DNA of 64,000 bases, taken from Eledone cirrhosa (Eukaryota). The position numbers and the translations under genes are program-made. The first letter of the stretch is position 1. Every line of letters begins with the position of its first letter. The stretch lies in NCBI GenBank assembly GCA_964016885.1, contig OZ024742.1, positions 19,220,001 to 19,284,000 on the forward strand, read 5' to 3'. Below are positions 17,881 to 63,353 of the stretch, in pieces. A model generated the notes under the pieces. It worked only from the letters and a program-made list of their open reading frames with translations, searched no databases and was not told the DNA's origin.

Positions 17881-19210
17881 ATCCTTTTCGTTTGATTAAG
17901 TTGGCATATTTATGTTCATTGCACTAAAAGGTTTTCTGGTGAATCTTTAAATTTCTAGATTGTTGTCATGTCCTATCTCAGTGTACCTTTCGGTGTCAAA
18001 TATGTGTTATCTATGTACTGGAATCTAGGTTTTGTATATCTTTCTGACAATCCACCACGATTTGGTCACTCCTACTTGATTGGTTTGCCTGGGGTGAACT
18101 GAGGTGTTCTGTATATGGCTTCTAACCTTGTTTCCTGTGTTATAGCTATACAAATGTGACGTATTATTAAAGTTTTATTTTCAAAAAGGTGTATATTTTT
18201 TAGGCCAGGAGTGTTATATTGCAGCATGTTTAGAATTGCGGTATTATGTTTAAACGCCGTATATTGTCGACTTAAGTTCTTGACATGTATTTTCTATATG
18301 AAATTGTTTTTAGGAGTTGTTGGTTATATTTTATGAGGAGCGGTGAAATTAAGAAGGGAGATAATGACACTTCCGGTATCCTAATGTTTTTTTTTTTAGT
18401 TTATTTTCTATGTTGTGTTTTCTGTTGTCTATGTGTATGTTTGGGATGTTATTTTCTAGATATGTTTGTTTTACCTTTCCAACGATTTTGCTGTCTATTT
18501 CATGTAGAGAAGTCGGGTTCGGATTTCATTTGCGCTTCACGTTCCACCGAATTTCGTTCAGTTAGCTTTCTTCTCTGTCGTCTTTAACACATTCAATCGA
18601 TACTCCTGCTGGGAAACTCACCCCCCCCCCCCTCCCCCCGTTAGTTTTGCTGATATGTTCAAAACAAGGCTATACAATGTAGTCGCTCATTTTTAGAACA
18701 GTATGGAGTTAATTTCAGGGACATTTCACTGCTATTACTAGTATATAAGTAAGCCATATAAATTCTCCCTGACTTACATGTATACTTGGCTTCCTACCCA
18801 GTGTTACATGGTAAATATAATTGTTTCTACTTTTCGCAAAAGGCCAGCAATTATCCCAGTACATTACTGGTACTTTATTTTATCGGCCCTTAAGGATGAA
18901 AGGCAAAGTTAACCTCGAAATATAATGTCTTGAATTGATTGACAATTTGTTAAATGAAAATCGCGGTACTCCTCTATTAACGTATTATATCAGAAACATA
19001 TTTGTATTTAAATATAAGTATGTATACGTACATACATATATGTATACAGACGTACAGTAGTATGTATATATATACATACATGCACACATATATATATGTA
19101 CGTATGGATTCACCGAACATTTATTATAATACTCGGTTTGTTTATAAACAAACATCCCGTACAGTGTTTAGCAACCATCGTTGCCCTTTTGTTCAACACT
19201 GACAAAGGAA

Positions 19211-19251
19211 CGATGTACTAGTTTCAAGCTTATTAGCTATCGTCAGCACCG
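19211..19251 (-). ncRNA. Minimal type I hammerhead ribozyme, family A
   Basis: Minus strand: cggtg CTGACGA tagct-aata-agctt GAAA ctag TA catcg. Confidence 0.8.
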
Positions 19252-19679
19252 TATACCTTCCTGCCAGATGATTGAACGTCTGAAAGTATATCCTTTCCTT
19301 ATGCATATTAACGGGCAAACGATGGTTGCTAAACACTGTACGGCTTAATTCGGGATGTTTGTTTACAAACACATCGAGCATTATAATAAATGTTCGGTAA
19401 ATCCATACATACATATATATATGTGTGCATGTATGTATATATATACATACTACTGTACGTCTGTATACATATATGTATGTATGTATGTATACATACTTAT
19501 ATTTAAGTAACAGCCGTACTAAGAGTGAGAAATGAAATTTCGTTTCATTTTTTCCATTTATCGTTTTCGGTACCCCGGCCGATTAACTCACTCGATATGC
19601 AAACTGGGCTGCTCAGCCGTTAATATGCATAAAGAAAGTATATACTTTCAGACGTTCAATCATCTGGCAGGGAGGTATA

Positions 19680-19720
19680 CGGTGCTGACGATAGCTAATA
19701 AGCTTGAAACTAGTACATCG
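19680..19720 (+). ncRNA. Minimal type I hammerhead ribozyme, family A
   Basis: cggtg CTGACGA tagct-aata-agctt GAAA ctag TA catcg; palindromic stem III ACTAGT, GUA cleavage triplet. Confidence 0.8.
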
Positions 19721-20369
19721 TTCCTTTGTCAGTGTTGAACAAAAGGGCAACGATGGTTGCTAAACACTGTACGGCTTAATACGGGATGTTTGTTTACAAA
19801 CAAACCGAGCATTATAATAAATGTTCAGTAAATCCATACGTACATATATATATATGTGTGCATGTATGTACATATATACATACTACTGTACGTATGCATA
19901 CATATATTTATGTACGTATACATACTTATATTTAAGTAACAGCGGTACTAAGAGTGAGAAATGAAATTTCGTTTCATTTTTTCCATATATTTGTATTATT
20001 TGTGATATAAATACATCTCTTTACCGAATGTCACCAACTCCTCTATTATGTGTTCCAGACCAGAGGCTGAGGTCATGCTGCGGTACCGCCATCTTTCAGA
20101 ATCTGCCTGTATTTAACTTTGAAAACAAAACCTCTTGCAATCATGGATATTCCATATCAGGGAGAAAATTGGATGTTTGTATCTGGAATTCACTCGTGCA
20201 TAGTCTCATAACTCTTTAGGTGGTCGTGGGGCAACGTATTACCATACAGAGTTTCTTGGGCTTCTTTAATTCTGGCGGAGCCCAGCCCTCGCTAGGTACG
20301 AATACAACATATTTCTTCCTGAGAAGGATAGAGTGAGTGAGGGAATGGAAGTGATAAAGAGATATAGAA

Positions 20370-21968: not shown

Positions 21969-22056
21969 TATGTATGTATGTATGTATGGATACACACACA
22001 TTCATATATATATGCATGCATATACCCACATACATATATATATATATATATATATT

Positions 22057-22537
<481 letters not shown>

Positions 22538-25026: not shown

Positions 25027-25149
25027 GGAGATGAGTTTTATTGTAGTACAATAAAGCAATGCAGATATCGGATAAGAAGCACTCTACAGTTTGTAGGACT
25101 GGAGTATGCATAATATAAGATCAAAAGATGGTTAAAGGAGTTCCATGTA

Positions 25150-25216
25150 TTTTATTATGCGCATTTCAAAAACAAACTTCATCATGCAATAATATTTGTG
25201 TTTTCATCAGCTAAAA
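25150..25216 (-). ncRNA. Type I hammerhead ribozyme in the PLE pseudo-LTR
   Basis: ttttag CTGATGA aaacacaaatatt..gtttgttttt GAAA tgcgca TA ataaaa; palindromic stem III ATGCGCAT. Confidence 0.78.
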
Positions 25217-26233
25217 CAGGAGAACATGATATGAAGGCTAAAAAACACTTGTGGATAGTGCAGTTTTAAATCAACATATGAAAAGTGGTTTTAGATTGAT
25301 GTGTGATATTGGGAAAAATATTTTATTTAGAGAGGGGGGTGGAAAGGATGAAAAGGGAAGGAGATGAGAGGGAGAGATGGGTGATAGAGAGAAAGAGATA
25401 GTTTTTATAACTGAGAGGAGATATATTGTTTTATATAGAGAGGTTGAAAACCGTTGGAAGATAATGTATAAATTAAAAATTTTGAAAATTAACGAAGGGA
25501 GGATATGTGCGAGGAAAAAATATTTTATTTAGGGAGGGGGGGGGGAAGGATGAAAAAAGGGGGATGAGATGAGAGTGAAGGTGGAGAGGGAGAGATGGGT
25601 GATAGAGAGAAAGAGATAGTTTTTATAACTGAGAAAAAGATATATTGTTTTAACATAGAGAGGTTGGGAACCGTTGGAAGATAATGTATAAATTAAAGGA
25701 ATTTGAAAATTAACGAAGGGAAATTATGTATGAAGATAGAGAGAAAAAAATAATAATTGTGGATGAATATTCTAACGTCAAAAAAAGAGAAATGTATGTA
25801 TTGTGGCAATTTCAAAATTAACGAAGAGAAAAATTATTAAGGTTTGTGTGTAGAAGGATTTGAGAAAAATAATGTGAAGTTAAAGTTTGTATATTGATTG
25901 AATTGATAATATATGCGAATAAAGAGTTAATATGTATTAATAATGAGTTCGTTGATGGGGAGAAAAAAATAATAAATTAAGGATGAAATTGAGATTAAAA
26001 AGATTTATGATAGAGAGAAAAAATAATAATGATTGCGGATGAATATTCTAACGTCAAAAACAACAAATGTATATGTTATGATTTTACAAGGTGAAGATAG
26101 AATGAGGGTAATGAGTAAACAAGTATTATAGAGTGTATAATGCCCTTTAAAGTAAGGTAGATGGGTATATTTTAAAGAGGTGTATGTATATGTGCCTTTG
26201 AGAAAAGATTCTAAATTGATAAAGAATTGAATA

Positions 26234-26751
26234 TTAACTGTATACTTTGTGAAAAGTTCTATGGAATTTATGCAGGCAGATAGAAAACAAATCGGTGCGT
26301 CTATTTATTATAGAATCTAGGTTAGAGATAATGGTAAATTTTTCATTTAGGCAGAGATTACAGATTTTAGATAGAGAGCTGTTCAAGTATGAGGATCCAG
26401 AAGAAATCTTCTTCCAAAAGATGGTATATTTAATGTTTTTGTCTTTTAAGGACCATATGAGTTCTGAGAGAGCAGTGTTAGTTCTTTTAAGTTTGTATTT
26501 GAAAGATGAATGATGATTATAGAGACGAGCTTTAAAAGAGGTGGAAGTGGAGCCAAAATAGGTGAAGGAATTGGTGCTAGTTATAATTTTACATTCATAA
26601 ATTAAGTTTTTATCGAGACAATGGTTGTTGAGAGGACATTTATTTTTAATGCGGCAGTTGCAATTAGAGAGATTATTAATGAGTGATCTAGTGTTATCTA
26701 TAGAAGGAATTGGATTGGAGAAGTTGTTTGCGATAGGAATAATAGGATAAT
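26234..26751 (-). pseudogene. PLE C-terminal Cys linker + GIY-YIG endonuclease (truncated ORF)
   Basis: CNCRIKNKCPLNNHC, LIYECKI..TYFGSTSTSFKARLYNHHSSF, CNLCLNEK, INRRTD..CLH. The first about 10 aa of the tracked ORF come from the inverted arm. Confidence 0.9.
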
Positions 26752-27801
26752 ACTTTTCACAAAGTATACAGTTAATATTCAATTCTTTATCAATTTAGAA
26801 TCTTTTCTCAAAGGCACATATACATACACCTCTTTAAAATATACCCATCTACCTTACTTTAAAGGGCATTATACACTCTATAATACTTGTTTACTCATTA
26901 CCCTCATTCTATCTTCACCTTGTAAAATCATAACATATACATTTGTTGTTTTTGACGTTAGAATATTCATCCGCAATCATTATTATTTTTTCTCTCTATC
27001 ATAAATCTTTTTAATCTCAATTTCATCCTTAATTTATTATTTTTTTCTCCCCATCAACGAACTCATTATTAATACATATTAACTCTTTATTCGCATATAT
27101 TATCAATTCAATCAATATACAAACTTTAACTTCACATTATTTTTCTCAAATCCTTCTACACACAAACCTTAATAATTTTTCTCTTCGTTAATTTTGAAAT
27201 TGCCACAATACATACATTTCTCTTTTTTTGACGTTAGAATATTCATCCAAAATTATTATTTTTTTCTCTCTATCTTCATACATAATTTCCCTTCGTTAAT
27301 TCTCAAATTCCTTTAATTTATACATTATCTTCCAACGGTTCCCAACCTCTCTATGTTAAAACAATATATCTTTTTCTCAGTTATAAAAACTATCTCTTTC
27401 TCTCTATCACCCATCTCTCCCTCTCCACCTTCACTCTCATCTCCTCCCCCTTTTTTTCATCCTTTCCACCCCACCCCCTCCCTAAATAAAATATTTTTTC
27501 CTCGCACATATCCTCCCTTCGTTAATTTTCAAAATTTTTAATTTATACATTATCTTCCAACGGTTTTCAACCTCTCTATATAAAACAATATATCTCCTCT
27601 CAGTTATAAAAACTATCTCTTTCTCTCTATCACCCATCTCTCCCTCTCATCTCCTTCCCTTTTCATCCTTTCCACCCCCCCCCCTCTCTAAATAAAATAT
27701 TTTTCCCAATATCACACATCAATCTAAAACCACTTTTCATATGTTGATTTAAAACTGCACTATCCACAAGTGTTTTTTAGCCTTCATATCATGTTCTCCT
27801 G

Positions 27802-27868
27802 TTTTATCTGATGAAAACACAAATATTATTGCATGATGATGTTTGTTTTTGAAATCCGCATAATAAAA
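27802..27868 (+). ncRNA. Type I hammerhead ribozyme in the inverted pseudo-LTR
   Basis: ttttat CTGATGA ... GAAA tccgca TA ataaaa; one substitution breaks the stem III palindrome. Confidence 0.72.
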
Positions 27869-27905
27869 TACATGGAACTCCTTTAACCATCTTTTGATCT
27901 TATAT

Positions 27906-37701: not shown

Positions 37702-38770
37702 GATCCTGGGGGTACCGGAAAAACTTTTGTAACGAATTTGATTCTCGCTAAGATTCGTTAGGAGAAAAAAGTTGCGTTGTCCGTTGCATCGTCCGGGATC
37801 GCTGCTACTTTGCTGCCGGGAGGCAGGACAGCACATTCAACCTTTAAATTCCCTTTGGATTTAGTAAAAACTGAGACACCAACATGCAATATCAGCAAGA
37901 GTTCACACAAAGCTATGGTTCTCAAAATATGTTGCCTCATTGTTTGGGATGAGTGCACAATGGAACACAAGGGTGCCCTTGAGGCATTTGACGAGGCCCA
38001 GAAAGACATTAGGGATTCTACGGCTCCTATGGGTGGCGTAACCCTTCTGCTATCAGGGGATTTTCGGAAAACGCTGTCTGTCATCCCCAAATGGACAAGA
38101 GCTGATGAAGTGCGTGCCTGTCTTAAGTCGTCCATGTTGAGGCTCCAGGTGAATAGTTTGTACCTGAGCACAAATATGCGTGCTCATTTGCATGGTGACA
38201 ACATGTCTGCAGCACAGAACATTTTAGCACTTGGTGAGGGCAATATCCCTGCGGATGACAAGGGCGGCATAGCAATCGACACCCTGTGCAACATTGTGAG
38301 CAGCCCTTCTGACCTTTGGGAAGCAGTTTTTCCTAATGTCTCATCTAACTTTAAAAACCTCGATTGGCTCAGCGAAAGAGCCATCCTTGCTCCGAAAAAT
38401 ACCATGGTTAATTTTATTAACGAGCAGCTGATTGAGATGATTCCCGGTAAAGAGCACATCTTCAAATCAGACCCCGACAATATCGTTAATTATCCGGTTG
38501 AGTTATTAAATCTCCTTGAGCCCCCAGGGCTCCCACCTCACATTATTAAGCTTAGGGTTGGCTGTCCCATTATGCTAATAAGGAACTTGCGTCCACCAAA
38601 GCAGTGCAACGGTACTCGCATAGTCGTCAAGTCACTGACACCTACTTGATTGAGGCCACCATTGTAACGGGGTGCGGAAGAGGGGAGAATGTTTTCATTC
38701 CAAGGATGAACCTTTTCCTCTCGGCGTCAGATATCCTGTTCGATTTCCGGCGATCACAATTCCAGGTCTA
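37702..38770 (+). pseudogene. Helitron PIF1-family helicase domain, disrupted
   Basis: PGGTGKTF, VASSGIAATLLPGGRTAHSTF, IVWDECTM, LLSGDFR, STNMR, RAILAPKN, PIMLIRNL..CNGTR, FIPRM. A stop precedes 37777 and a frameshift lies near 38645. Confidence 0.92.
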
Positions 38771-39298: not shown

Positions 39299-39364
39299 TA
39301 TTTTGTCTGATGAAGGCATACCATATTCTTAATATGATATCCCTGAAATATATATAATGAAATA
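39299..39364 (+). ncRNA. Type I hammerhead ribozyme, family C, within (TA)n
   Basis: tattttgt CTGATGA agg..catatt-ctt-aatatg..cct GAAA tatata TA atgaaata; downstream sequence matches 51436-51480. Confidence 0.75.
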
Positions 39365-40531: not shown

Positions 40532-41131
<600 letters not shown>

Positions 41132-41309: not shown

Positions 41310-41521
41310 ATGTGAGAAAAACCACAGACGCTCCATCTCAACTTTACTTTTGAAAAGCAGAAGAACTGCGAAACCGGTAAAGGAACCAAATAAATATATA
41401 TATATTTTTTTTAAATAAGACTCAAGTTGCATTTTCGATTTCATCACTTTTTCTTTATACTTTCACTCGTGTAGGACACCTCGGTTATTTTTCGATTTGT
41501 AAAAAAAACCTCACTTTCTAA
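41310..41521 (+). mobile_element. Family E 3' fragment
   Basis: Matches 22269-22415 and the reverse complement of 22057-22120. Confidence 0.75.
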
Positions 41522-41525
41522 TATA

Positions 41526-41557
<32 letters not shown>

Positions 41558-41727
41558 AAGAATTAATATCTAGTAACATATATATACATACAGATGCATA
41601 TCAATGCTATCAAATATATAGGTTTTGTCTTAGTAACTTTGTGGTTCAATGCATGGGGTTGCAGAACAATAATATGAGAGACGTAAAATAAGAAAATTAT
41701 AAAATTAGCTTACTTACTAAAATATCA

Positions 41728-41807
41728 CTTCCAACTAATTAGTTTCTGAAATGGAATAAATATATTTTCCGAAGAAAACACAGAGAATCATTTCGTCGTC
41801 AGGGAAG
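41728..41807 (-). ncRNA. Type I hammerhead ribozyme, family F
   Basis: cttcc CTGACGA cgaaatg..catttca GAAA ctaattag TT ggaag; palindromic stem III. Confidence 0.72.
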
Positions 41808-42329
41808 ACTATTCTCATCTAAGTATCCAGGCAAAGCGTGAACTCTGGAAACTTATTCAAAAATAATTCAGTGGATAGAAAATAGCAAAGCGTGGACTGA
41901 ATTCCTAGCCATTGAGAAAATCACTGCCTCTGCGTCGGTGGCAAATTCAAAAAGAATCAATCACGTGACATCGAGGTCAATCAGTGGAAAGTGGTTTGCT
42001 AATAAGACAGCGGCCTGCAACTGTATGTATATATATGTTACTAGATATTAATTCTTTATAATTTTCTCCAAATTATTTGTCGAGCAATATTGGCCAAGAC
42101 TGTTGCTATGGTAGCAGGCAGGCCGCTGTCTTATTAGCAAACCACTTTCCACTGATTGACCTCGATGTCACGTGATTGATTCTTTTTTAAATTGGCCACC
42201 GACGCAGAGGCAGTGATTTTCTCAATGGCTAGGAATTCAGTCCACGCTTTGCTATTTTCTATCCACTGAATTATTTTTGAATAAGTTTCCAGAGTCCACG
42301 CTTTGCCTGGATACTTAGATGAGAATAGT

Positions 42330-42409
42330 CTTCCCTGACGACGAAATGATTCTCAATGTTTTCTTCGGAAAATATATTTATTCCATTTCAGAAACTAATT
42401 AGTTGAAAG
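42330..42409 (+). ncRNA. Type I hammerhead ribozyme, family F
   Basis: cttcc CTGACGA cgaaatg..catttca GAAA ctaattag TT gaaag. Confidence 0.68.
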
Positions 42410-42477
42410 TGATATTTTAGTAAGTAAGTTAATTTTATAATTTTCTTATTTTACGTCTCTCATATATATATATATGG

Positions 42478-43360
<883 letters not shown>

Positions 43361-43361
43361 A

Positions 43362-43419
43362 GACATATATATGTATATATATCTATATATATATATGTAT
43401 ATATATATATATGTATATA

Positions 43420-44110: not shown

Positions 44111-44868
44111 AGATAAGCAGAACAAGTAAAATTCAAGCAATTTTCCATCGGATTTATGAGGTTTTACAAAGCGAAACTGATTAGTAAGGGCCACTAGGAG
44201 AGGTAAATATTTATATTATATTTTTTAATGTATTTTAAAAAATTGATTGAATTTTACTTGTTCTGCTTATCTTAATATTAAAGTTCTGGTGTATCAAATT
44301 AATACCATTGAACAACCTTGAATCATTGACAACCTATGTATTTCTGGGGGTACCTAGTATCCCTGGACATATTAACTTCAATCTCTTTCTCCGTCTGTTG
44401 AGAACAATCCTGCTGTTCTATTTAGCTGCTATTTTTTTTAGTAGTAATTGTAGACAGCAAGTCTTTGATTTTCCCGCTTTTACTTCGGTCCAGTTTACAT
44501 ACGGGTCACTTTTACGACCTTTCAGACCTTTATTTGCTGGCAGGATGTTATATATTTTGTCGTTCCTGGGACATTTAGCCCTAGGAAGGGAAAATGCTTC
44601 TCTGATGAGCTTTGGTTTTCCATCATAAATCCATCGGATTTATGAGGTTTTACAAAGCGAAACTGATCAGTAAGGGCCACTAGGAGAGGTAAATATTTAT
44701 ATTATATTTTTTAATGTATTTTAAAAAATTGATTGAATTTTACTTGTTCTGCTTATCTTAATATTAAAGTTCTGGTGTGTCAAATTAATACCATTGAACA
44801 ACTTTGAATCATTGACAACCTATGTATTTCTGGGGGTACCTAGTATCCCTGGACATATTAACTTCAAT
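44111..44868 (+). mobile_element. Retrozyme-like family G: 486-nt period with 238-bp terminal redundancy and a short inverted 5' piece
   Basis: 44145-44382 is repeated at 44631-44868; 44111-44144 is the inverse of about 44238-44272; (TA)n on both sides. Confidence 0.85.
44596..44677 (+). ncRNA. Type I hammerhead ribozyme, family G
   Basis: ttct CTGATGA gctttg..tcataaatcc-atc-ggatttatga..caaagc GAAA ctgatcag TA aggg; canonical core with G10.1-C11.1 and palindromic stem III. Confidence 0.85.
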
Positions 44869-49967: not shown

Positions 49968-50045
<78 letters not shown>

Positions 50046-50048
<3 letters not shown>

Positions 50049-50296
50049 AGTGAGGTTTTTTTTACAAAATGAAAAATAACCGAGGTGTCCTACACGAGTG
50101 AAAGTATAAAGAAAAGAAGATGAAATCGAAAATGCGACTGGAGTCTTATTTTTGAGATGTGAGAAAAACCACAGACCCTCCATCTCAACTCTACTTTTGA
50201 AAAGCAGAACAACTGCGAAACCGGTAAAGGAACCAAATAAATATATATATTTTTTTTAAAATAAGACTCCAGTTGCATTTTCGATTTCATCTTTTT

Positions 50297-50300
<4 letters not shown>
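50046..50300. mobile_element. Family E copy with an inverted junction
   Basis: Left part minus, right part plus, junction at about 50153. Confidence 0.75.
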
Positions 50301-50345
<45 letters not shown>

Positions 50346-51080: not shown

Positions 51081-51481
51081 TATTCAATTTATTGGTAATT
51101 GGATTATAACTGATTCAGAGCACTCCACAAATTTTTATGGAGTATAATATTCAATGATATTAAATAAATGGAAACTATATTTATAAAACTATATTTATTC
51201 TATTATATATATTTCAAGGGTACCAAAACTTTGGTACGCTTTCATCAAATACAAAGTTTGTTTTATAAATTTTGACATAACCAAGGAAATATACCTTAAC
51301 GGTTCAACTATCCAAGGAAAACTTGAACCGTTAAGGTATCTTTCCTTGGTTATGTCAAAATTTATAAAACAAACTTTGTATTTTATCTGATGAAAGCGTA
51401 CCAAAATTTTGGTACCCTTGAAATATATATAATAGAATAAATATGGTTTTATAAATATAGTTTCCATTTATTTAATATCAT

Positions 51482-51878: not shown

Positions 51879-51940
51879 TTCATTCTGACGACTGAAGACA
51901 GATATAAATATCTGTCTTCAAGAAACCACTGGTAAATGAA
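51879..51940 (+). ncRNA. Type I hammerhead ribozyme, family D
   Basis: ttcatt CTGACGA ctgaagacagatat..tatctgtcttcaa GAAA ccactgg TA aatgaa. Confidence 0.78.
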
Positions 51941-57714: not shown

Positions 57715-57855
57715 ATTTATTAGGTATTGACATATGTTTCTGTAACAGACGGAATACCTATGTATCGCTGCTTGCGTAATCATATAATGTTAGCAAGTAT
57801 TCGATAGCAAATGTATAATCAGTTGTCACTTCTTCAGAGATTTTGGATAAATTGG
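57715..57855 (-). ncRNA. Possible hammerhead in the pseudo-LTR (second copy 60823-60962)
   Basis: CTGAAGA agtgaca..tgttaca GAAA catatg TC with palindromic stem III ACATATGT, but proximal stem I is poor and a competing hairpin exists. Confidence 0.4.
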
Positions 57856-58310
57856 ATAAAATCAGAAAAATTGAAGTATTTATATTAGTAATAGAGGAAG
57901 AAAAAGAGGGGATAGTATATGACAGATGGTAAATTAATTTACTGCTAAACAAGTATATAATGGGTTTCTAATGAGAATACCATGAGTAAATCTAAATAAG
58001 AATTTTGGGAGTGCCAATTTTAATCTCTACTTGACCAATTGGACAGTGGACAGGGCTGGTCATTTGGTGCAGTAGTATTAATTATAAAGTGTCAATTGGG
58101 GAAGGGGGAGATTTCGATTGCTACTAAATAACATCAATGCTAGTAGCCAGCTGGTATATGCATTAGGGAATTGAATCAAGAAATCAGAAATCTCATTTTA
58201 TCTATAGCAGTTTATATTAAAAGGTAAATAATAGAAGAGTTGATAGAATTAAGACTAATAAAGAATGTTAATATCTATTTTGACAATCAAACGGAGATAG
58301 AGACAGGCGT

Positions 58311-60622
58311 TCAATCCTGGTAGTATTTATAATATGAAAATGTAGATTTTAAGCGATGGTTACAGTATAACGATCGCTCTATTCTGTTATTTAATAAAAT
58401 GTTTTTGGATTTCATAATACAAAATAATTCTACATTACATAATTTACAAAATTCCTGTTCATGGGAATATGGGGGGGGGGGCAGCCGCTATTATATCCCA
58501 TTTTAGGTGAAATTGTTGGTTATTTTCACGCAGCTGCCAAGCCTTGTCTGCGAGTGTTGTTACATAACGCTGGTTTTCATGTTTTATCGAGTAACGATGT
58601 CTATAAAGGCGTGATTTGAAGGAGGTGGCTGTAGATCCCACATAGTACCACTTCTGTCTATCCGATTCGATAGTACATTTGTATACGATGTTGCGTTCAA
58701 GACACTGATTGTTCAACGGACACATTCCTGGTTGGACACAGTTGCAATTATAATTTTGCGTTGTTGTATTGCCATGGATGGGTTGATGAGGTTGCTTATG
58801 TAGGACAGGATGTTGTTTGTTGTTTTGTGATGTTATAGCTAATGTTTTACGTGTATTGTTATGTGTTGGAAGGCGTTTATACAACCGTTTTGCGTTAAGC
58901 TTTTTTATATGTTGTTCAATATTAGGGGCGGTTGAATATGAAAGTCGAATAGTGTTAGGGTTTAAGATTTTATTATATTTATGTGATGTTGGAAAGTGTT
59001 TTTTAACTAATCGAAAGAATTTTGAGGGTAGATTGGTTTTAATAGAGTTGTTATAGACCGGGTTGTACCAAATATACTCCTTACATCGCCTTCTGTTTGG
59101 TGGTGTGCGACTATTATTGTGTCTATTGCGGTAGTGTATGTATGGTGGTGATTTTGTGCTATTTCTACTCCTATGGGATTTATTTTGGGTGTTTTGGTGA
59201 TCTTCGACTATATACTCTATATTATCTAGGTGACCGGCTTTCCTAAGTGCATCATCATAATATTCGGCATGTTCTTTGAAGGTCTGTTGGTTGGACGACA
59301 GGCGGGAGATTCTAAGAGAAACATTTCTAGGGATGGATTTAATTATAGAGAGTGGATGGTTAGAACTCGTATTTACATATTTAAGGTTCTCATTTAGTTT
59401 ATGGAACGGTTTAATCGTATCTGTATTGAGATTCAAAGTAACATCAAGGAAATTGACCTCTTTGAGGTTATATTCAAATGTAATATTTAATCCTAGTTCC
59501 TTAAAAAGCTTTCTGATATTTTTACGCATCCTTTCTAAAATATGCTTAACTAATAGGAGCGCATCGTCACGGTAGATTCCACCGTGGAGATCCTTGAATT
59601 TTCCTTGTAATCTGTGGGTGATATAAATTCCCACAAGATCTGTTACTTCCGCCGAATCATTAGAACCCATAGTGATATCAAAATTAGAAGGTCTATCTTT
59701 GCGAACCCAGTAGCTATCATCGAATTTAACTATAGTTTTCCTCGCTTCCATAATAATTTTTATTTCAGCATCCGTAAGGTCGGAATTATCCTTAGCGAAC
59801 GAAAGAGCTTCATGTAGAGTATCAGGTGAAATTGAGGAATAATATTCATCAATATCAAACTGAATAAATTTTGATTTTTTCTTATCAGTAATGTTATTAA
59901 ACCATCTTATTGCTTCATGAGTGTTACCCCATAGTTTAATCTCTACTTTAACCTTAACTTGGGGGATAATTCTGTCTAGTATATATTTGCTAATTTTGCC
60001 TATATCAGATTTAGAGGGGCATATAAGTCTAATATTAGGGTTAGTATCGAAGTTTACCTTGTGGTCCTTCAGGTTGAAGCATGGTATAGCTGGTGTTAAG
60101 GGTTGCGTTCTATCGTCAATACAAAGTTTTTTTAACAATTTCACATGCCGAGTTGTTGATGTTTTTAAGTGTAGCTTCATTAGTTTTCCTGTATTTTTTA
60201 TGCAATTCCTTACGGATGAAGTTATTGTAAGTGTCCACATCCATGGTATATACGTTTGATGTTTTGTCTGCTCTAACAATAATTCCATTGGCGTTTTTTA
60301 GATTATTGAGCAGTGCCGTGATGTCATTCTATAGTTTATTGTTCTTCCGTTTTGTAAATTTGATCTCCATGATCATATCCATTAGGTCTTGTTCAAATGC
60401 ATCCAAAAGTGGGTTTGAGGGTGGGTTCTTGTAAGATTTAAATCCAAATTTATCCTTGTTAAGATCCGATGTTTGGTTTATACGGCTTTTGTCAAAATGG
60501 AATGTTTTCCATCTGATTCGTCGAATAAAATCATTGGTCCTTCGTATCATACCTAGAATATATTCCCTTTTTGCCTGAATAGGTATGTTTTTTAACGACA
60601 TATCCAATTGGTGCCTTTCCAT
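58311..60622 (-). pseudogene. PLE reverse transcriptase + C-terminal GIY-YIG endonuclease, with one in-frame stop and two homopolymer frameshifts
   Basis: SLKNIP, IVRADKT, IRLICP, FDIDEYYSSI, MGSNDSAE, IYRDD, VNFLDV, SSNHP, CNC..CPL..C, IVYKC..YYVGST..FKSRLYRH. After the G-run (58471-58482) it continues CKLCNVE..LNNRIE..CNH to TGA at 58311. TAG at 60329; A-run shift near 60130. Confidence 0.93.
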
Positions 60623-62636
60623 TTTAGAGGCGTATACTGAATTAGTTGCTCAACTGTATAGGAGATTAATAAAATTTCAGGTTATCAATAATGTAGTGAT
60701 AATATATCGTTACGTTAGAGATGAACAGCGTACGTGCAGGTTTGCTCAACGAGTATAAATTATATTCCGGAGAAAATGTAGAAAGGATGAATATAAAATG
60801 AAAGTGCTTTTTTTTAAAAAGGAATTTATTAGGTATTGACATATGTTTCTGTAACAGACGGAATACCTATGTATCGCTGCTTGCGTAATCATATAATGTT
60901 AGCAAGTATTCGATAGCAAATGTATAATCAGTTGTCACTTCTTCAGAGATTTTGGATAAATTGGATAAAATCAGAAAAATTGAAGTATTTATATTAGTAA
61001 TAGAGGAAGAAAAAGAGGGGATAGTATATGACAGATGGTAAATTAATTTACTGCTAAACAAGTATATAATGGGTTTCTAATGAGAATACCATGAGTAAAT
61101 CTAAATAAGAATTTTGGGAGTGCCAATTTTAATCTCTACTTGACCAATTGGACAGTGGACAGGGCTGGTCATTTGGTGCAGTAGTATTAATTATAAAGTG
61201 TCAATTGAGGAAGTGGGAGATTTCGATTGCTACTAAATAACATCAATGCTAGTAGCCAGCTGGTATATGCATTAGGGAATTGAATCAAGTAATCAGAAAT
61301 CTCATTTTATCTATAGCAGTTTATATTAAAAGGTAAATAATAGAAGAGTTGATAGAATTAAGACTAATAAAGAATGTTAATATCTATTTTGACAATCAAA
61401 CGGAGATAGAGACAGGCGTTCAATCCTGGTAGTATTTATAATATGAAAATGTAGATTTTAAGCGATGGTTTCAGTATAATAAAATGTTTTTGGATTTCAT
61501 AATACAAAATAATTCTACATTACATAATTTACAAAATTCCTGTCCATGGCCGTCATTTATCTGGTTCCTTTGATATGTCACCTGTCAATCAAAGTTGTTT
61601 CTTTTAGCAGAATTACTGCTGTATGAAGTAAGGGGTTGTATGGTTGAAACGCTCGCACCCTGCTGCAGCCTTCCCGGCCTGTAGACACCCACACCCATGT
61701 CCATGTTTCGCGCAGGCGTGATACATATGGGCACCTATACACACACAACAATCACATACACACCCGCAACTGTATTATATGCGACAATCACAGTAAATAT
61801 TAAATGTGCCGCGAATAATTGGAAACAATTTTTAAACAATAGAAAAACATTTCAAAAAACGTTTCAGAAAAACACACCCTCAAAATACCTTAAAAAACAC
61901 ATTTAAAAAAAAACTTTAAAAAGAACATTTTAAAAAAATGCTTGAAAGAGCCAGAAAAACACAGCCTCAAAATATCTTAAAAAACACATTAAAAAAAAAC
62001 CTTTAAAAAGAACATTTAAAAATAATGCTTGAAAGAGCCTGTCAAAAAAAATTATTTCAAAAGTATTTCTGAAAAATATACATACGTATATATACACACA
62101 CACACTGTACTCAGGAAAGTATATATACCTAAGACGCATATACTTGAAACAATACATATGGATGCACATATATATAGATGAAAAAACGGAAAATATACAC
62201 ATACATAAGCATAGGGTTATATAAGATATAGAAGGACTGAAGATCCAAGGGACTGAGTAAGAATCTGCACATCAACCATGCACATGAGACAGATTTCATG
62301 ACAATATAAGTCTGATTTTGTTTACAACCTTATCTGTGGTTTTGAATTTTAATTTTAATTTTAATTTTCGATTTTTGATGTTTAATTTGCAATTTTAATG
62401 TTGGAATTGATGTTGGATTTAAGGTTAATGTTGAGGTTAATTCTAACTTTTCCTGCCGTTGCTATATACATGCCTACAACACAAGCCGGAGAAACGATTG
62501 TAATATGTCTAATACATTTTTATTCGTCGCACCACTGATTCTCCGTTTCTTATATGATATTATACTCTGCTCTGTAAGAGCATCGAGTGCTCAAACGGCT
62601 TACCGCATACGGACGCTTTAAGCATCCCACACCAAT

Positions 62637-62874: not shown

Positions 62875-63353
62875 AATAGAATGAAACGAAATTTCATTTC
62901 TCACTTTTAGTACGGCAGTTACTTAAATGTAAGTATGTATGTATACATACATACATATATGTATACAGACGTACAGTAGTATGTATATATATACATACAT
63001 GCACACATATATATATATGCACGTATCGGTTTACCGAACATTTATTATAATGTTCGGTTTGTAAACAAACAAACAGCCCGAATTACGCCGTACAGTGTTT
63101 AGGCAACCACGTCACCTTTTTGTTCAACACAGGAACGATGTACTAGTTTCAAGCTTATTAGCTATCATCAGCATCGTATACCTTCCTGCCAGATGGTTGA
63201 ATGTCTGAAAGTATATACTTTCCTTATGCAAACAAATCGAACATTATAATAAATGTTCGGTAAACCGATACGTGCATGTATATATGTGTGCATGTATGTA
63301 TATATATATACATACTACTGTACGTCTGTATACATATATGTATGTACGTATAC

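What the first reader, a model, noticed from the sequence alone, without database searches (positions are those of the whole stretch)
41553..42465. Family F: two inverted pieces that close into a circle of about 520 nt
The minus-strand piece ends in ctgtatgtatatatatgttactagatattaattctttata. That is exactly where the plus-strand piece begins (42021), and the plus piece then runs into the sequence that starts the minus piece. The two therefore assemble only as a circularly permuted monomer with one hammerhead (GUU triplet, stem III ACTAATTAGT). This is sequence-level evidence for a circular or tandem template.
Basis: partly seen in the sequence, partly recalled or inferred. Interest (0 to 1): 0.7.

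Follow-up and report, generated by a model that had tools for sequence, protein, structure and literature searches.

The report
Self-locking hammerhead retrozyme, Penelope-type insertion
The two inverted pieces are the two arms of one insertion of a 522-base, protein-free repeat found in thousands of copies in this animal genome; it carries a predicted self-cutting RNA fold and was likely pasted in by a borrowed Penelope-type enzyme copying an RNA, probably a circle, from both sides of a DNA break.

Summary
Observation confirmed. The two pieces are head-to-head arms of one insertion of a 522-nt non-coding unit that occurs elsewhere as tandem arrays of up to 4.9 units (2,451 exact ribozyme 24-mers; over 10,000 related cores). 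Each unit has a type I hammerhead fold with covarying stem II. Arms end in (TA)n at two fixed sites, 61 and 179 nt past the predicted cut; in an unbiased sample 27 of 28 two-armed loci pair one end of each type. An active Hydra-clade Penelope-like element in the same genome shows the same two-end rule (62 and 168 nt) and the same small bulged hairpin just 3' of each start site. No 5' ends pile up at the cut, so the template was a sealed circle or an uncleaved multimer; DNA cannot separate these, and no RNA run was available. A conserved helix pairs across the cut site and is predicted to lock the ribozyme off, as in viroids and unlike most animal retrozymes. Verdict: an animal non-LTR retrozyme, a variant of a known kind. 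The scan noted this insertion pattern and this superfamily before on other DNA of this genome.

The parts
41554..42018 (-). Arm 1: unit positions 96-522 then 1-38; 3' end at fixed site B, running into (TA)n
   Evidence: L001
42021..42465 (+). Arm 2: unit positions 521-522 then 1-442; 3' end at fixed site A, running into (TA)n
   Evidence: L001
42016..42020 (.). Head-to-head junction of the two 5' ends; about 3 nt fit either arm
   Evidence: sequence; overlaps at other loci (no null model computed)
41728..41807 (-). Predicted type I hammerhead of arm 1: stem I 5 bp, core CUGACGA 41802-41796, long stem II with UUCG loop, C.A in place of the usual closing pair, palindromic stem III, GUU, predicted cut after 41733
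   Evidence: covariation
42330..42409 (+). Predicted hammerhead of arm 2, one mismatch in stem I, predicted cut after 42404
   Evidence: sequence, alignment
42143..42158 (+). Blocking segment (unit 121-136), predicted to pair with unit 373-388 across the cut site, unpaired only opposite the cut nucleotide
41978..41993 (-). Blocking segment, copy in arm 1
   Evidence: sequence
41645..41666 (-). Bulged hairpin 6 nt 3' of end site A (candidate reverse-transcriptase start signal)
42066..42084 (+). Bulged hairpin 6 nt 3' of end site B (candidate start signal)
41521..41553 (.). (TA)n target, left flank
42466..42476 (.). (TA)n target, right flank
57793..61514 (-). Separate insertion in the window of the Hydra-clade Penelope-like family used as comparator and candidate enzyme donor (this copy's ORF is split; two direct terminal repeats)

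Best explanation
This is one two-armed insertion of a 522-nt non-coding repeat with a predicted hammerhead ribozyme (an animal non-LTR retrozyme), likely made by a Hydra-type Penelope enzyme copying a probably circular RNA from both ends of a cut in a (TA)n run. Shown by sequence: tandem arrays, two fixed 3' ends in (TA)n, random 5' ends, head-to-head arms that pair one end of each type, no stop at the predicted cut. Inferred: (1) tandem genomic copies are transcribed; (2) the hammerhead cuts, probably as a dimer through its palindromic stem III; (3) the monomer refolds so that positions 121-136 hold both cut ends, which would help ligation and keep the circle uncut; (4) the enzyme binds two small bulged hairpins and starts reverse transcription a few bases 5' of each, one start per DNA end; (5) each cDNA runs round the unit for a variable length and the two growing ends are joined. 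Odds: PLE-mobilised retrozyme about 0.9; circle rather than uncleaved multimer about 0.6; Hydra clade as donor about 0.7.
For: Copy number: 2,451 exact 24-mers, control 0; 8,565 + 1,513 intact related cores, controls 0. Ends: 33 of 62 arms end at 442 and 23 at 38-43 in the best-hit set; TA runs follow 56 of 56 and 79 of 82 fixed ends. Pairing rule in the positional set (55 loci): 34 head-to-head, 28 with both ends fixed, 27 A+B, 1 B+B, 0 A+A, P=1e-7; best-hit set 16 A+B, 0 same-type, 5 other of 21. Comparator: a Hydra-type element with uninterrupted 765-aa frames (RWK, DKT, CxCX5C as in PMC8557442 section 11) ends in TA at +62 and +168 nt from its GUC, and 9 of 9 head-to-head loci with both ends visible are A+B. 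The same bulged hairpin sits 3-6 nt 3' of all four start sites, the only 2 hits in the 815-nt PLE terminal region (0.11 expected) and the only 2 in the 522-nt unit (0.15 expected). Two internal RT starts defining a tail, and cutting plus extension of both strands, are shown in vitro for another PLE (PMC11167929). Stem II covaries (one pair seen as AU, GC, UA, CG; another UA/GC), in a part left free by my search patterns. The hammerhead strand folds better than shuffles (z -3.5) and the opposite strand does not (z -0.9). Genome-wide, 8 of 20 exact hits lacking U at the cut are breaks there, against 12 of 26 at a control site 5 nt away: no excess. Arms share subfamily in 15 of 15 loci, and arms compared in register differ no less than out of register (1.45 vs 1.34%); rare cut-site alleles are shared by both arms in L208 and L214.
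Against: No RNA data: cleavage, ligation and circles are untested. Rfam does not recognise the hammerhead; it has a GUU triplet and a C.A mismatch closing stem II, so activity may be low; 8 of 9 predicted Xenopus retrozymes did not cleave in vitro (10.64898/2026.07.22.740005). For the anole PLE, ribozyme cleavage was not needed and uncut RNA was the main template in vitro (PMC11167929). Rare alleles shared by all passes of a locus (12) are fewer than those shared by only some (16), and L030 and L044 look like later DNA-level unit duplication or conversion, so arrays can grow without a circle. Subfamily concordance could reflect successive waves of activity. The blocking helix would also protect an uncleaved linear transcript; its two-sided change rests on about one event, and it is weak in some sister monomers (duplex p>0.05 in 7 of 21). 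The unit has no significant sequence similarity to the Hydra family tested (tail alignment reached by 36 of 500 shuffles). The hairpin descriptor was written after seeing the four sites.
Confidence: 0.6

Rival explanations
1. Same element and enzyme, but the template is an uncleaved linear multimer transcribed from genomic tandem arrays; the ribozyme is mostly held off by the blocking helix and circles, if made, are a side product.
For: Uncut RNA was the main substrate of a PLE in vitro (PMC11167929). No 5' ends at the cut fits this equally. Alleles shared by neighbouring units show that arrays can be homogenised or extended in DNA.
Against: No excess of in-register similarity between arms (1.45 vs 1.34%; 3 in-register vs 3 out-of-register shared rare alleles). 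Many subfamilies each form homogeneous arrays, length variants included, which needs repeated passage through one monomer. Continued covariation of the hammerhead implies that cutting matters.
Confidence: 0.3
2. The pieces are only the truncated terminal repeats (pLTRs) of an autonomous Penelope-like element not yet found.
For: The anatomy (partial tandem, inverted 5' copy, tail on one end, TA target) is that of PLE ends (PMC8557442). Only about 95 of thousands of loci were mapped.
Against: Arms wrap round the unit instead of entering coding sequence in the 40 + 55 loci mapped; longest stop-free frame of the unit is 59 aa; PLE protein matches in the flanks lie outside the arms. Origin from an ancestral pLTR remains likely.
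Confidence: 0.05
3. A DNA-level satellite or foldback repeat spread by recombination, with a chance hammerhead-like motif.
For: Rfam finds no ribozyme; local fold of the 161-nt ribozyme region alone is not unusual (z 0.05); some arrays show DNA-level duplication.
Against: Strand-specific fixed ends and random 5' ends, dispersal over many contigs, A+B rule shared with an autonomous retroelement, stem II covariation, strand-specific folding.
Confidence: 0.05

Closest known systems
Animal non-LTR retrozymes (Cervera and de la Pena 2020, PMC7229834, parts 2-4 read; Li, Clavereau and Pollet 2026, 10.64898/2026.07.22.740005, parts 1-3 read)
   Same: Non-coding, AT-rich (35% GC) tandem units with one type I hammerhead each, thousands of dispersed copies, PLEs in the same genome, proposed rolling-circle reverse transcription.
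   Different: 522 nt, above the 150-450 nt of the 2020 paper though inside the 51-972 nt of the preprint; very long stem II with C.A closure; ribozyme predicted to be blocked by a complementary segment, which the 2020 paper says is typical of viroids and plant retrozymes and, among animals, only of some mussel circles; the parts read describe no fixed ends, two-armed insertions or start hairpins. Circles were shown there, not here.
Hydra-clade Penelope-like elements (Craig et al. 2021, PMC8557442, passages and section 11 read)
   Same: (TA)n targeting, partial tandems, inverted 5'-truncated arm, tail at one end only, hammerhead near the end; in this genome also the same distances of the ends from the cut and the same bulged hairpins.
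   Different: No reading frame; tail is 118 nt (106 nt in the local Hydra family) against the 30-40 bp described; no significant sequence similarity to the family tested.
Poseidon element of the green anole (Frangieh et al. 2024, PMC11167929, main text read)
   Same: Two internal RT start sites downstream of the hammerhead define the tail; both DNA strands are cut and extended at AT-rich DNA.
   Different: Autonomous; start sites lie in an AC-rich stem-loop; no one-start-per-end rule is reported in the main text (supplements not read).
Hammerhead viroids and plant LTR retrozymes (as described in PMC7229834 Discussion; otherwise recalled)
   Same: Ribozyme sequestered by a complementary segment in the monomer.
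   Different: No hammerhead found on the opposite strand of the window arms, no evidence of RNA-to-RNA replication, type I not type III, no LTR anatomy.

Membership tests
Animal non-LTR retrozyme | Short tandem repeats with one type I hammerhead motif per unit | tested here: met
   stem II covariation; Rfam negative
Animal non-LTR retrozyme | No protein coding | tested here: met
   longest stop-free frame 59 aa over six frames
Animal non-LTR retrozyme | No LTR anatomy, GC below 50% | tested here: met
   arms are permuted tandems with random 5' ends; GC 0.35; PBS and PPT not searched separately
Animal non-LTR retrozyme | Self-cleavage of the RNA | not testable with these tools
   fold and covariation only
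Animal non-LTR retrozyme | Expressed as circular RNA | not testable with these tools
   no RNA run listed
Animal non-LTR retrozyme | Target-site duplication longer than 4 bp when present | tested here: inconclusive
   ends lie in (TA)n, duplications cannot be read
Autonomous Penelope-like element or its pLTR | RT plus GIY-YIG reading frame contiguous with the repeat | tested here: not met
   none in the 95 loci mapped
Penelope-type insertion footprint | Partial tandem with inverted 5'-truncated arm and a tail at one end only | tested here: met
   43 A+B, 1 B+B, 0 A+A among 44 loci with both ends fixed, both sets
Hydra-clade partner | Shares cis signals with a Hydra element of the same genome | tested here: inconclusive
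   TA target, end spacing and bulged hairpins shared; sequence similarity not significant; one Hydra family examined
Viroid-like replicon | Ribozymes on both polarities and RNA-to-RNA replication | tested here: not met
   motif scan found the hammerhead on one strand of the unit only; replication itself not testable

The most novel reading that the evidence does not exclude
An animal circular RNA parasite that locks its own ribozyme like a viroid and carries two copies of the start hairpin of Hydra-type Penelope elements, so that one enzyme dimer primes both ends of a DNA break at two different sites of the same circle. The shared hairpin would be the missing cis signal for Penelope reverse-transcription starts, and the one-start-per-end rule a general part of the Penelope mechanism.
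Probability: 0.4. Interest if true: 0.75.

Novelty: new variant of a known kind. Interest (0 to 1): 0.5.

Why it matters
How retrozymes are written into genomes is proposed but not shown in the papers read, and how Penelope elements form their tandem and inverted ends is called open in PMC8557442. This family gives a testable answer from thousands of natural insertions: two defined start sites, a candidate hairpin signal shared with an autonomous element that still has intact frames, a strict one-site-per-end rule, and a predicted off-switch for the ribozyme. The single locus is ordinary; the value lies in the family.

Tried and rejected
Rfam, whole window and the finding alone: no hammerhead family. 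Folding the 161-nt ribozyme region alone: not better than shuffles, hammerhead not the lowest-energy fold. Pfam on the PLE frames of the window: no family; clade assigned from motifs. Sequencing runs: no RNA holder listed; the three runs are contigs of unrecorded kind from one sample, show loose TA ends at site A but nothing on expression. First gapped pattern had a wrong gap length and found nothing. Search for a parent PLE: no similarity to the Hydra family of the window; PLE fragments in flanks carry other ribozyme-like motifs or none. Linear cleaved monomer as template: rejected, no excess of 5' ends at the cut; the earlier count (3 of 150) was biased by how loci were chosen and is not relied on. 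Core conservation (1.6 vs 4.0%) and intact-junction counts are inflated by selection on an exact 24-mer and are not used. Junction overlaps were seen (1 nt or more in 36 of 55) but no null was computed. One search timed out and was rerun. Literature searches listed no paper on fixed paired ends, a start hairpin or this family in retrozymes; listings only for papers not named above, subscription journals not covered, and supplements of the cited papers were not read (they may hold related Hydra end structures).

Full report
Numbering. Unit positions follow a natural unit, L014:2023-2544; position 1 corresponds to window 42023.

1. Observation. The minus piece (41554-42018) covers unit 96-522 then 1-38; the plus piece (42021-42465) covers 521-522 then 1-442. 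The window lies in a 3.0-Gb genome. Natural tandems have a 522-nt period, and 65 of 93 other loci hold the junction in the predicted order.

2. Family size. An exact 24-mer of the ribozyme occurs 2,451 times, control 0. Intact cores with the same stem III number 8,565 (CUGAUGA) and 1,513 (CUGACGA), controls 0. Complete-looking monomers of about 500-570 nt fall into many subfamilies 65-98% alike (19 of 71 monomers aligned, chosen as cluster representatives, one spurious 471-nt and several near-duplicate rows left out).

3. Ribozyme. Each unit has a type I hammerhead pattern: stem I 5 bp, CUGACGA, a long stem II ending in a UUCG loop, GAAA, a palindromic stem III and GUU, predicted cut after 381. 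The pair that normally closes stem II is C.A. Stem II covaries: one pair occurs as AU 6, GC 5, UA 4, CG 3, another as UA 12, GC 6 of 19 rows. Palindromic stem III ribozymes of PLEs are thought to work as dimers (PMC6765202, passages). Against: Rfam finds nothing and the region alone folds no better than shuffles. Cleavage is untested.

4. Blocking helix. Folded as a circle, the ribozyme strand is more stable than shuffles (z -3.5; opposite strand -0.9; 40 shuffles each) and positions 121-136 pair with 373-388, 15 of 16 pairs, unpaired only at the cut nucleotide. Forcing the hammerhead costs about 7.6 kcal/mol in the 522-nt units and 2.5-25 in the others; the duplex beats shuffled bodies at p<=0.03 in 14 of 21 monomers, which are related. 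In the alignment its cells are 99% and 97% paired, with one two-sided change that follows the change in stem I. Cervera and de la Pena state that most animal retrozyme circles leave the ribozyme free, unlike viroids and plant retrozymes (PMC7229834). It would favour ligation and a stable circle, but would also protect a linear precursor.

5. Insertion anatomy. In 40 best-hit loci, 56 of 62 arms end at 442 (site A) or 38-43 (site B), 61 and 179 nt past the cut, and 5' ends are scattered. In 55 loci taken in order along contig C1, 34 are head-to-head; of 28 with both ends at fixed sites 27 are A+B, 1 B+B, none A+A. TA runs follow 135 of 138 fixed ends. 36 of 89 arms exceed one unit, 9 exceed two, the longest is 2,547 nt. 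The window's insertion is a typical B+A case. 5' ends are enriched near 519-9 (12 of 89, 2.2 expected), where the window's plus arm begins; unexplained, perhaps microhomology of the internal TA stretch or a hairpin.

6. Template. Both arms share a subfamily in 15 of 15 typable loci; passes within a locus differ by 1.2-1.5%, loci of one subfamily by 1.9-2.0%, of different subfamilies by 2.6-2.7%. Arms in register are no closer than out of register. Rare alleles: 12 shared by all passes, 16 by some, 210 single; L030 and L044 suggest later DNA-level duplication or conversion. Because both starts lie just past the cut, a cleaved linear monomer would give short copies beginning at 382. Genome-wide exact searches found 8 breaks among 20 hits there (about five of them internal deletions by my reading) against 12 among 26 at a control position. 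So the template is a sealed circle or an uncleaved multimer. No RNA run was listed.

7. Enzyme. The window holds a PLE (57793-61514, minus) of a family with many uninterrupted frames; a 765-aa frame has RWK, DKT, CxCX5C, CxxC and CxH, the marks of the Hydra clade, which targets (TA)n (PMC8557442). Its copies end in TA at two sites 62 and 168 nt past a GUC, and 9 of 9 head-to-head loci with both ends in view are A+B (30 loci, two overlapping). Following earlier notes e1-9869566 and e1-8805697 I looked for a shared hairpin: YUC, short stem, two-base bulge, GAR lies 3-6 nt 3' of all four start sites; it is found at site A in 15 and at site B in 12 of 18 representative monomers (three B hits were logged as 'elsewhere' by the script; 3 true stray hits) and in 17 and 15 of 18 full PLE tails. 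The descriptor was written after seeing the sites. Sequence similarity between the tails is not significant, so this family is a model of the donor, not proven to be it. Two internal starts and extension of both strands are shown in vitro for an anole PLE (PMC11167929). An older model explains head-to-head PLE ends by self-priming on an antisense template (PMC3846280, passages); it does not predict the A+B rule.

8. Comparison and verdict. It works like, and by the testable features is, an animal non-LTR retrozyme; cleavage and circles remain untested. It is not an autonomous PLE or a viroid. What goes beyond the papers read is the paired-end rule, the shared start hairpin and the viroid-like lock. 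The scan's earlier notes describe the first two for other families and for this superfamily in the same genome; they are unchecked AI notes and are not counted as support. Those notes call the host a cephalopod; I did not test that. New variant of a known kind; interest 0.5.

Noticed in passing
window 19210-19252 (-), 19679-19721 (+), 63135-63177 (-), 42732-43368: Another hammerhead-bearing repeat family with a 6-nt palindromic stem III and a U.U mismatch closing stem II; partial tandem with 431-nt spacing just right of the finding.
   Followed up: no
window 39299-39364, 44598-44676, 51379-51439, 51879-51940 (+): Further hammerhead-like motifs of at least three other families.
   Followed up: no
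window 25119-27899: Head-to-head pair of about 920 nt holding a GIY-YIG-like frame of a second Hydra-like family (26234-26794, 36% identical to the first).
   Followed up: partly
L139:740-860: The ribozyme-like motif of the active Hydra family is not canonical: palindromic stem III and GUC are present, but CUGAAGA lies about 90 nt upstream without a pairing stem I.
   Followed up: no
L222, L223, L224: Three copies share a deletion that removes the hammerhead and rejoins exactly at the predicted cut site; could be a mis-ligated circle or one event duplicated later.
   Followed up: no
window 40567-40938, 41310-41520, 22030-22537, 49972-50305: A palindromic MITE-like repeat flanks the insertion on the left and recurs in the window.
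   Followed up: no
window 42477-42630 (+): Short fragment that reads like the 3' end of an RTE-type LINE (label recalled, not tested).
   Followed up: no
window 37762-38649 (+): PIF1-like helicase fragment, probably from a Helitron.
   Followed up: no
unit 519-9, many loci: 5' ends are about five times enriched here (12 of 89).
   Followed up: partly
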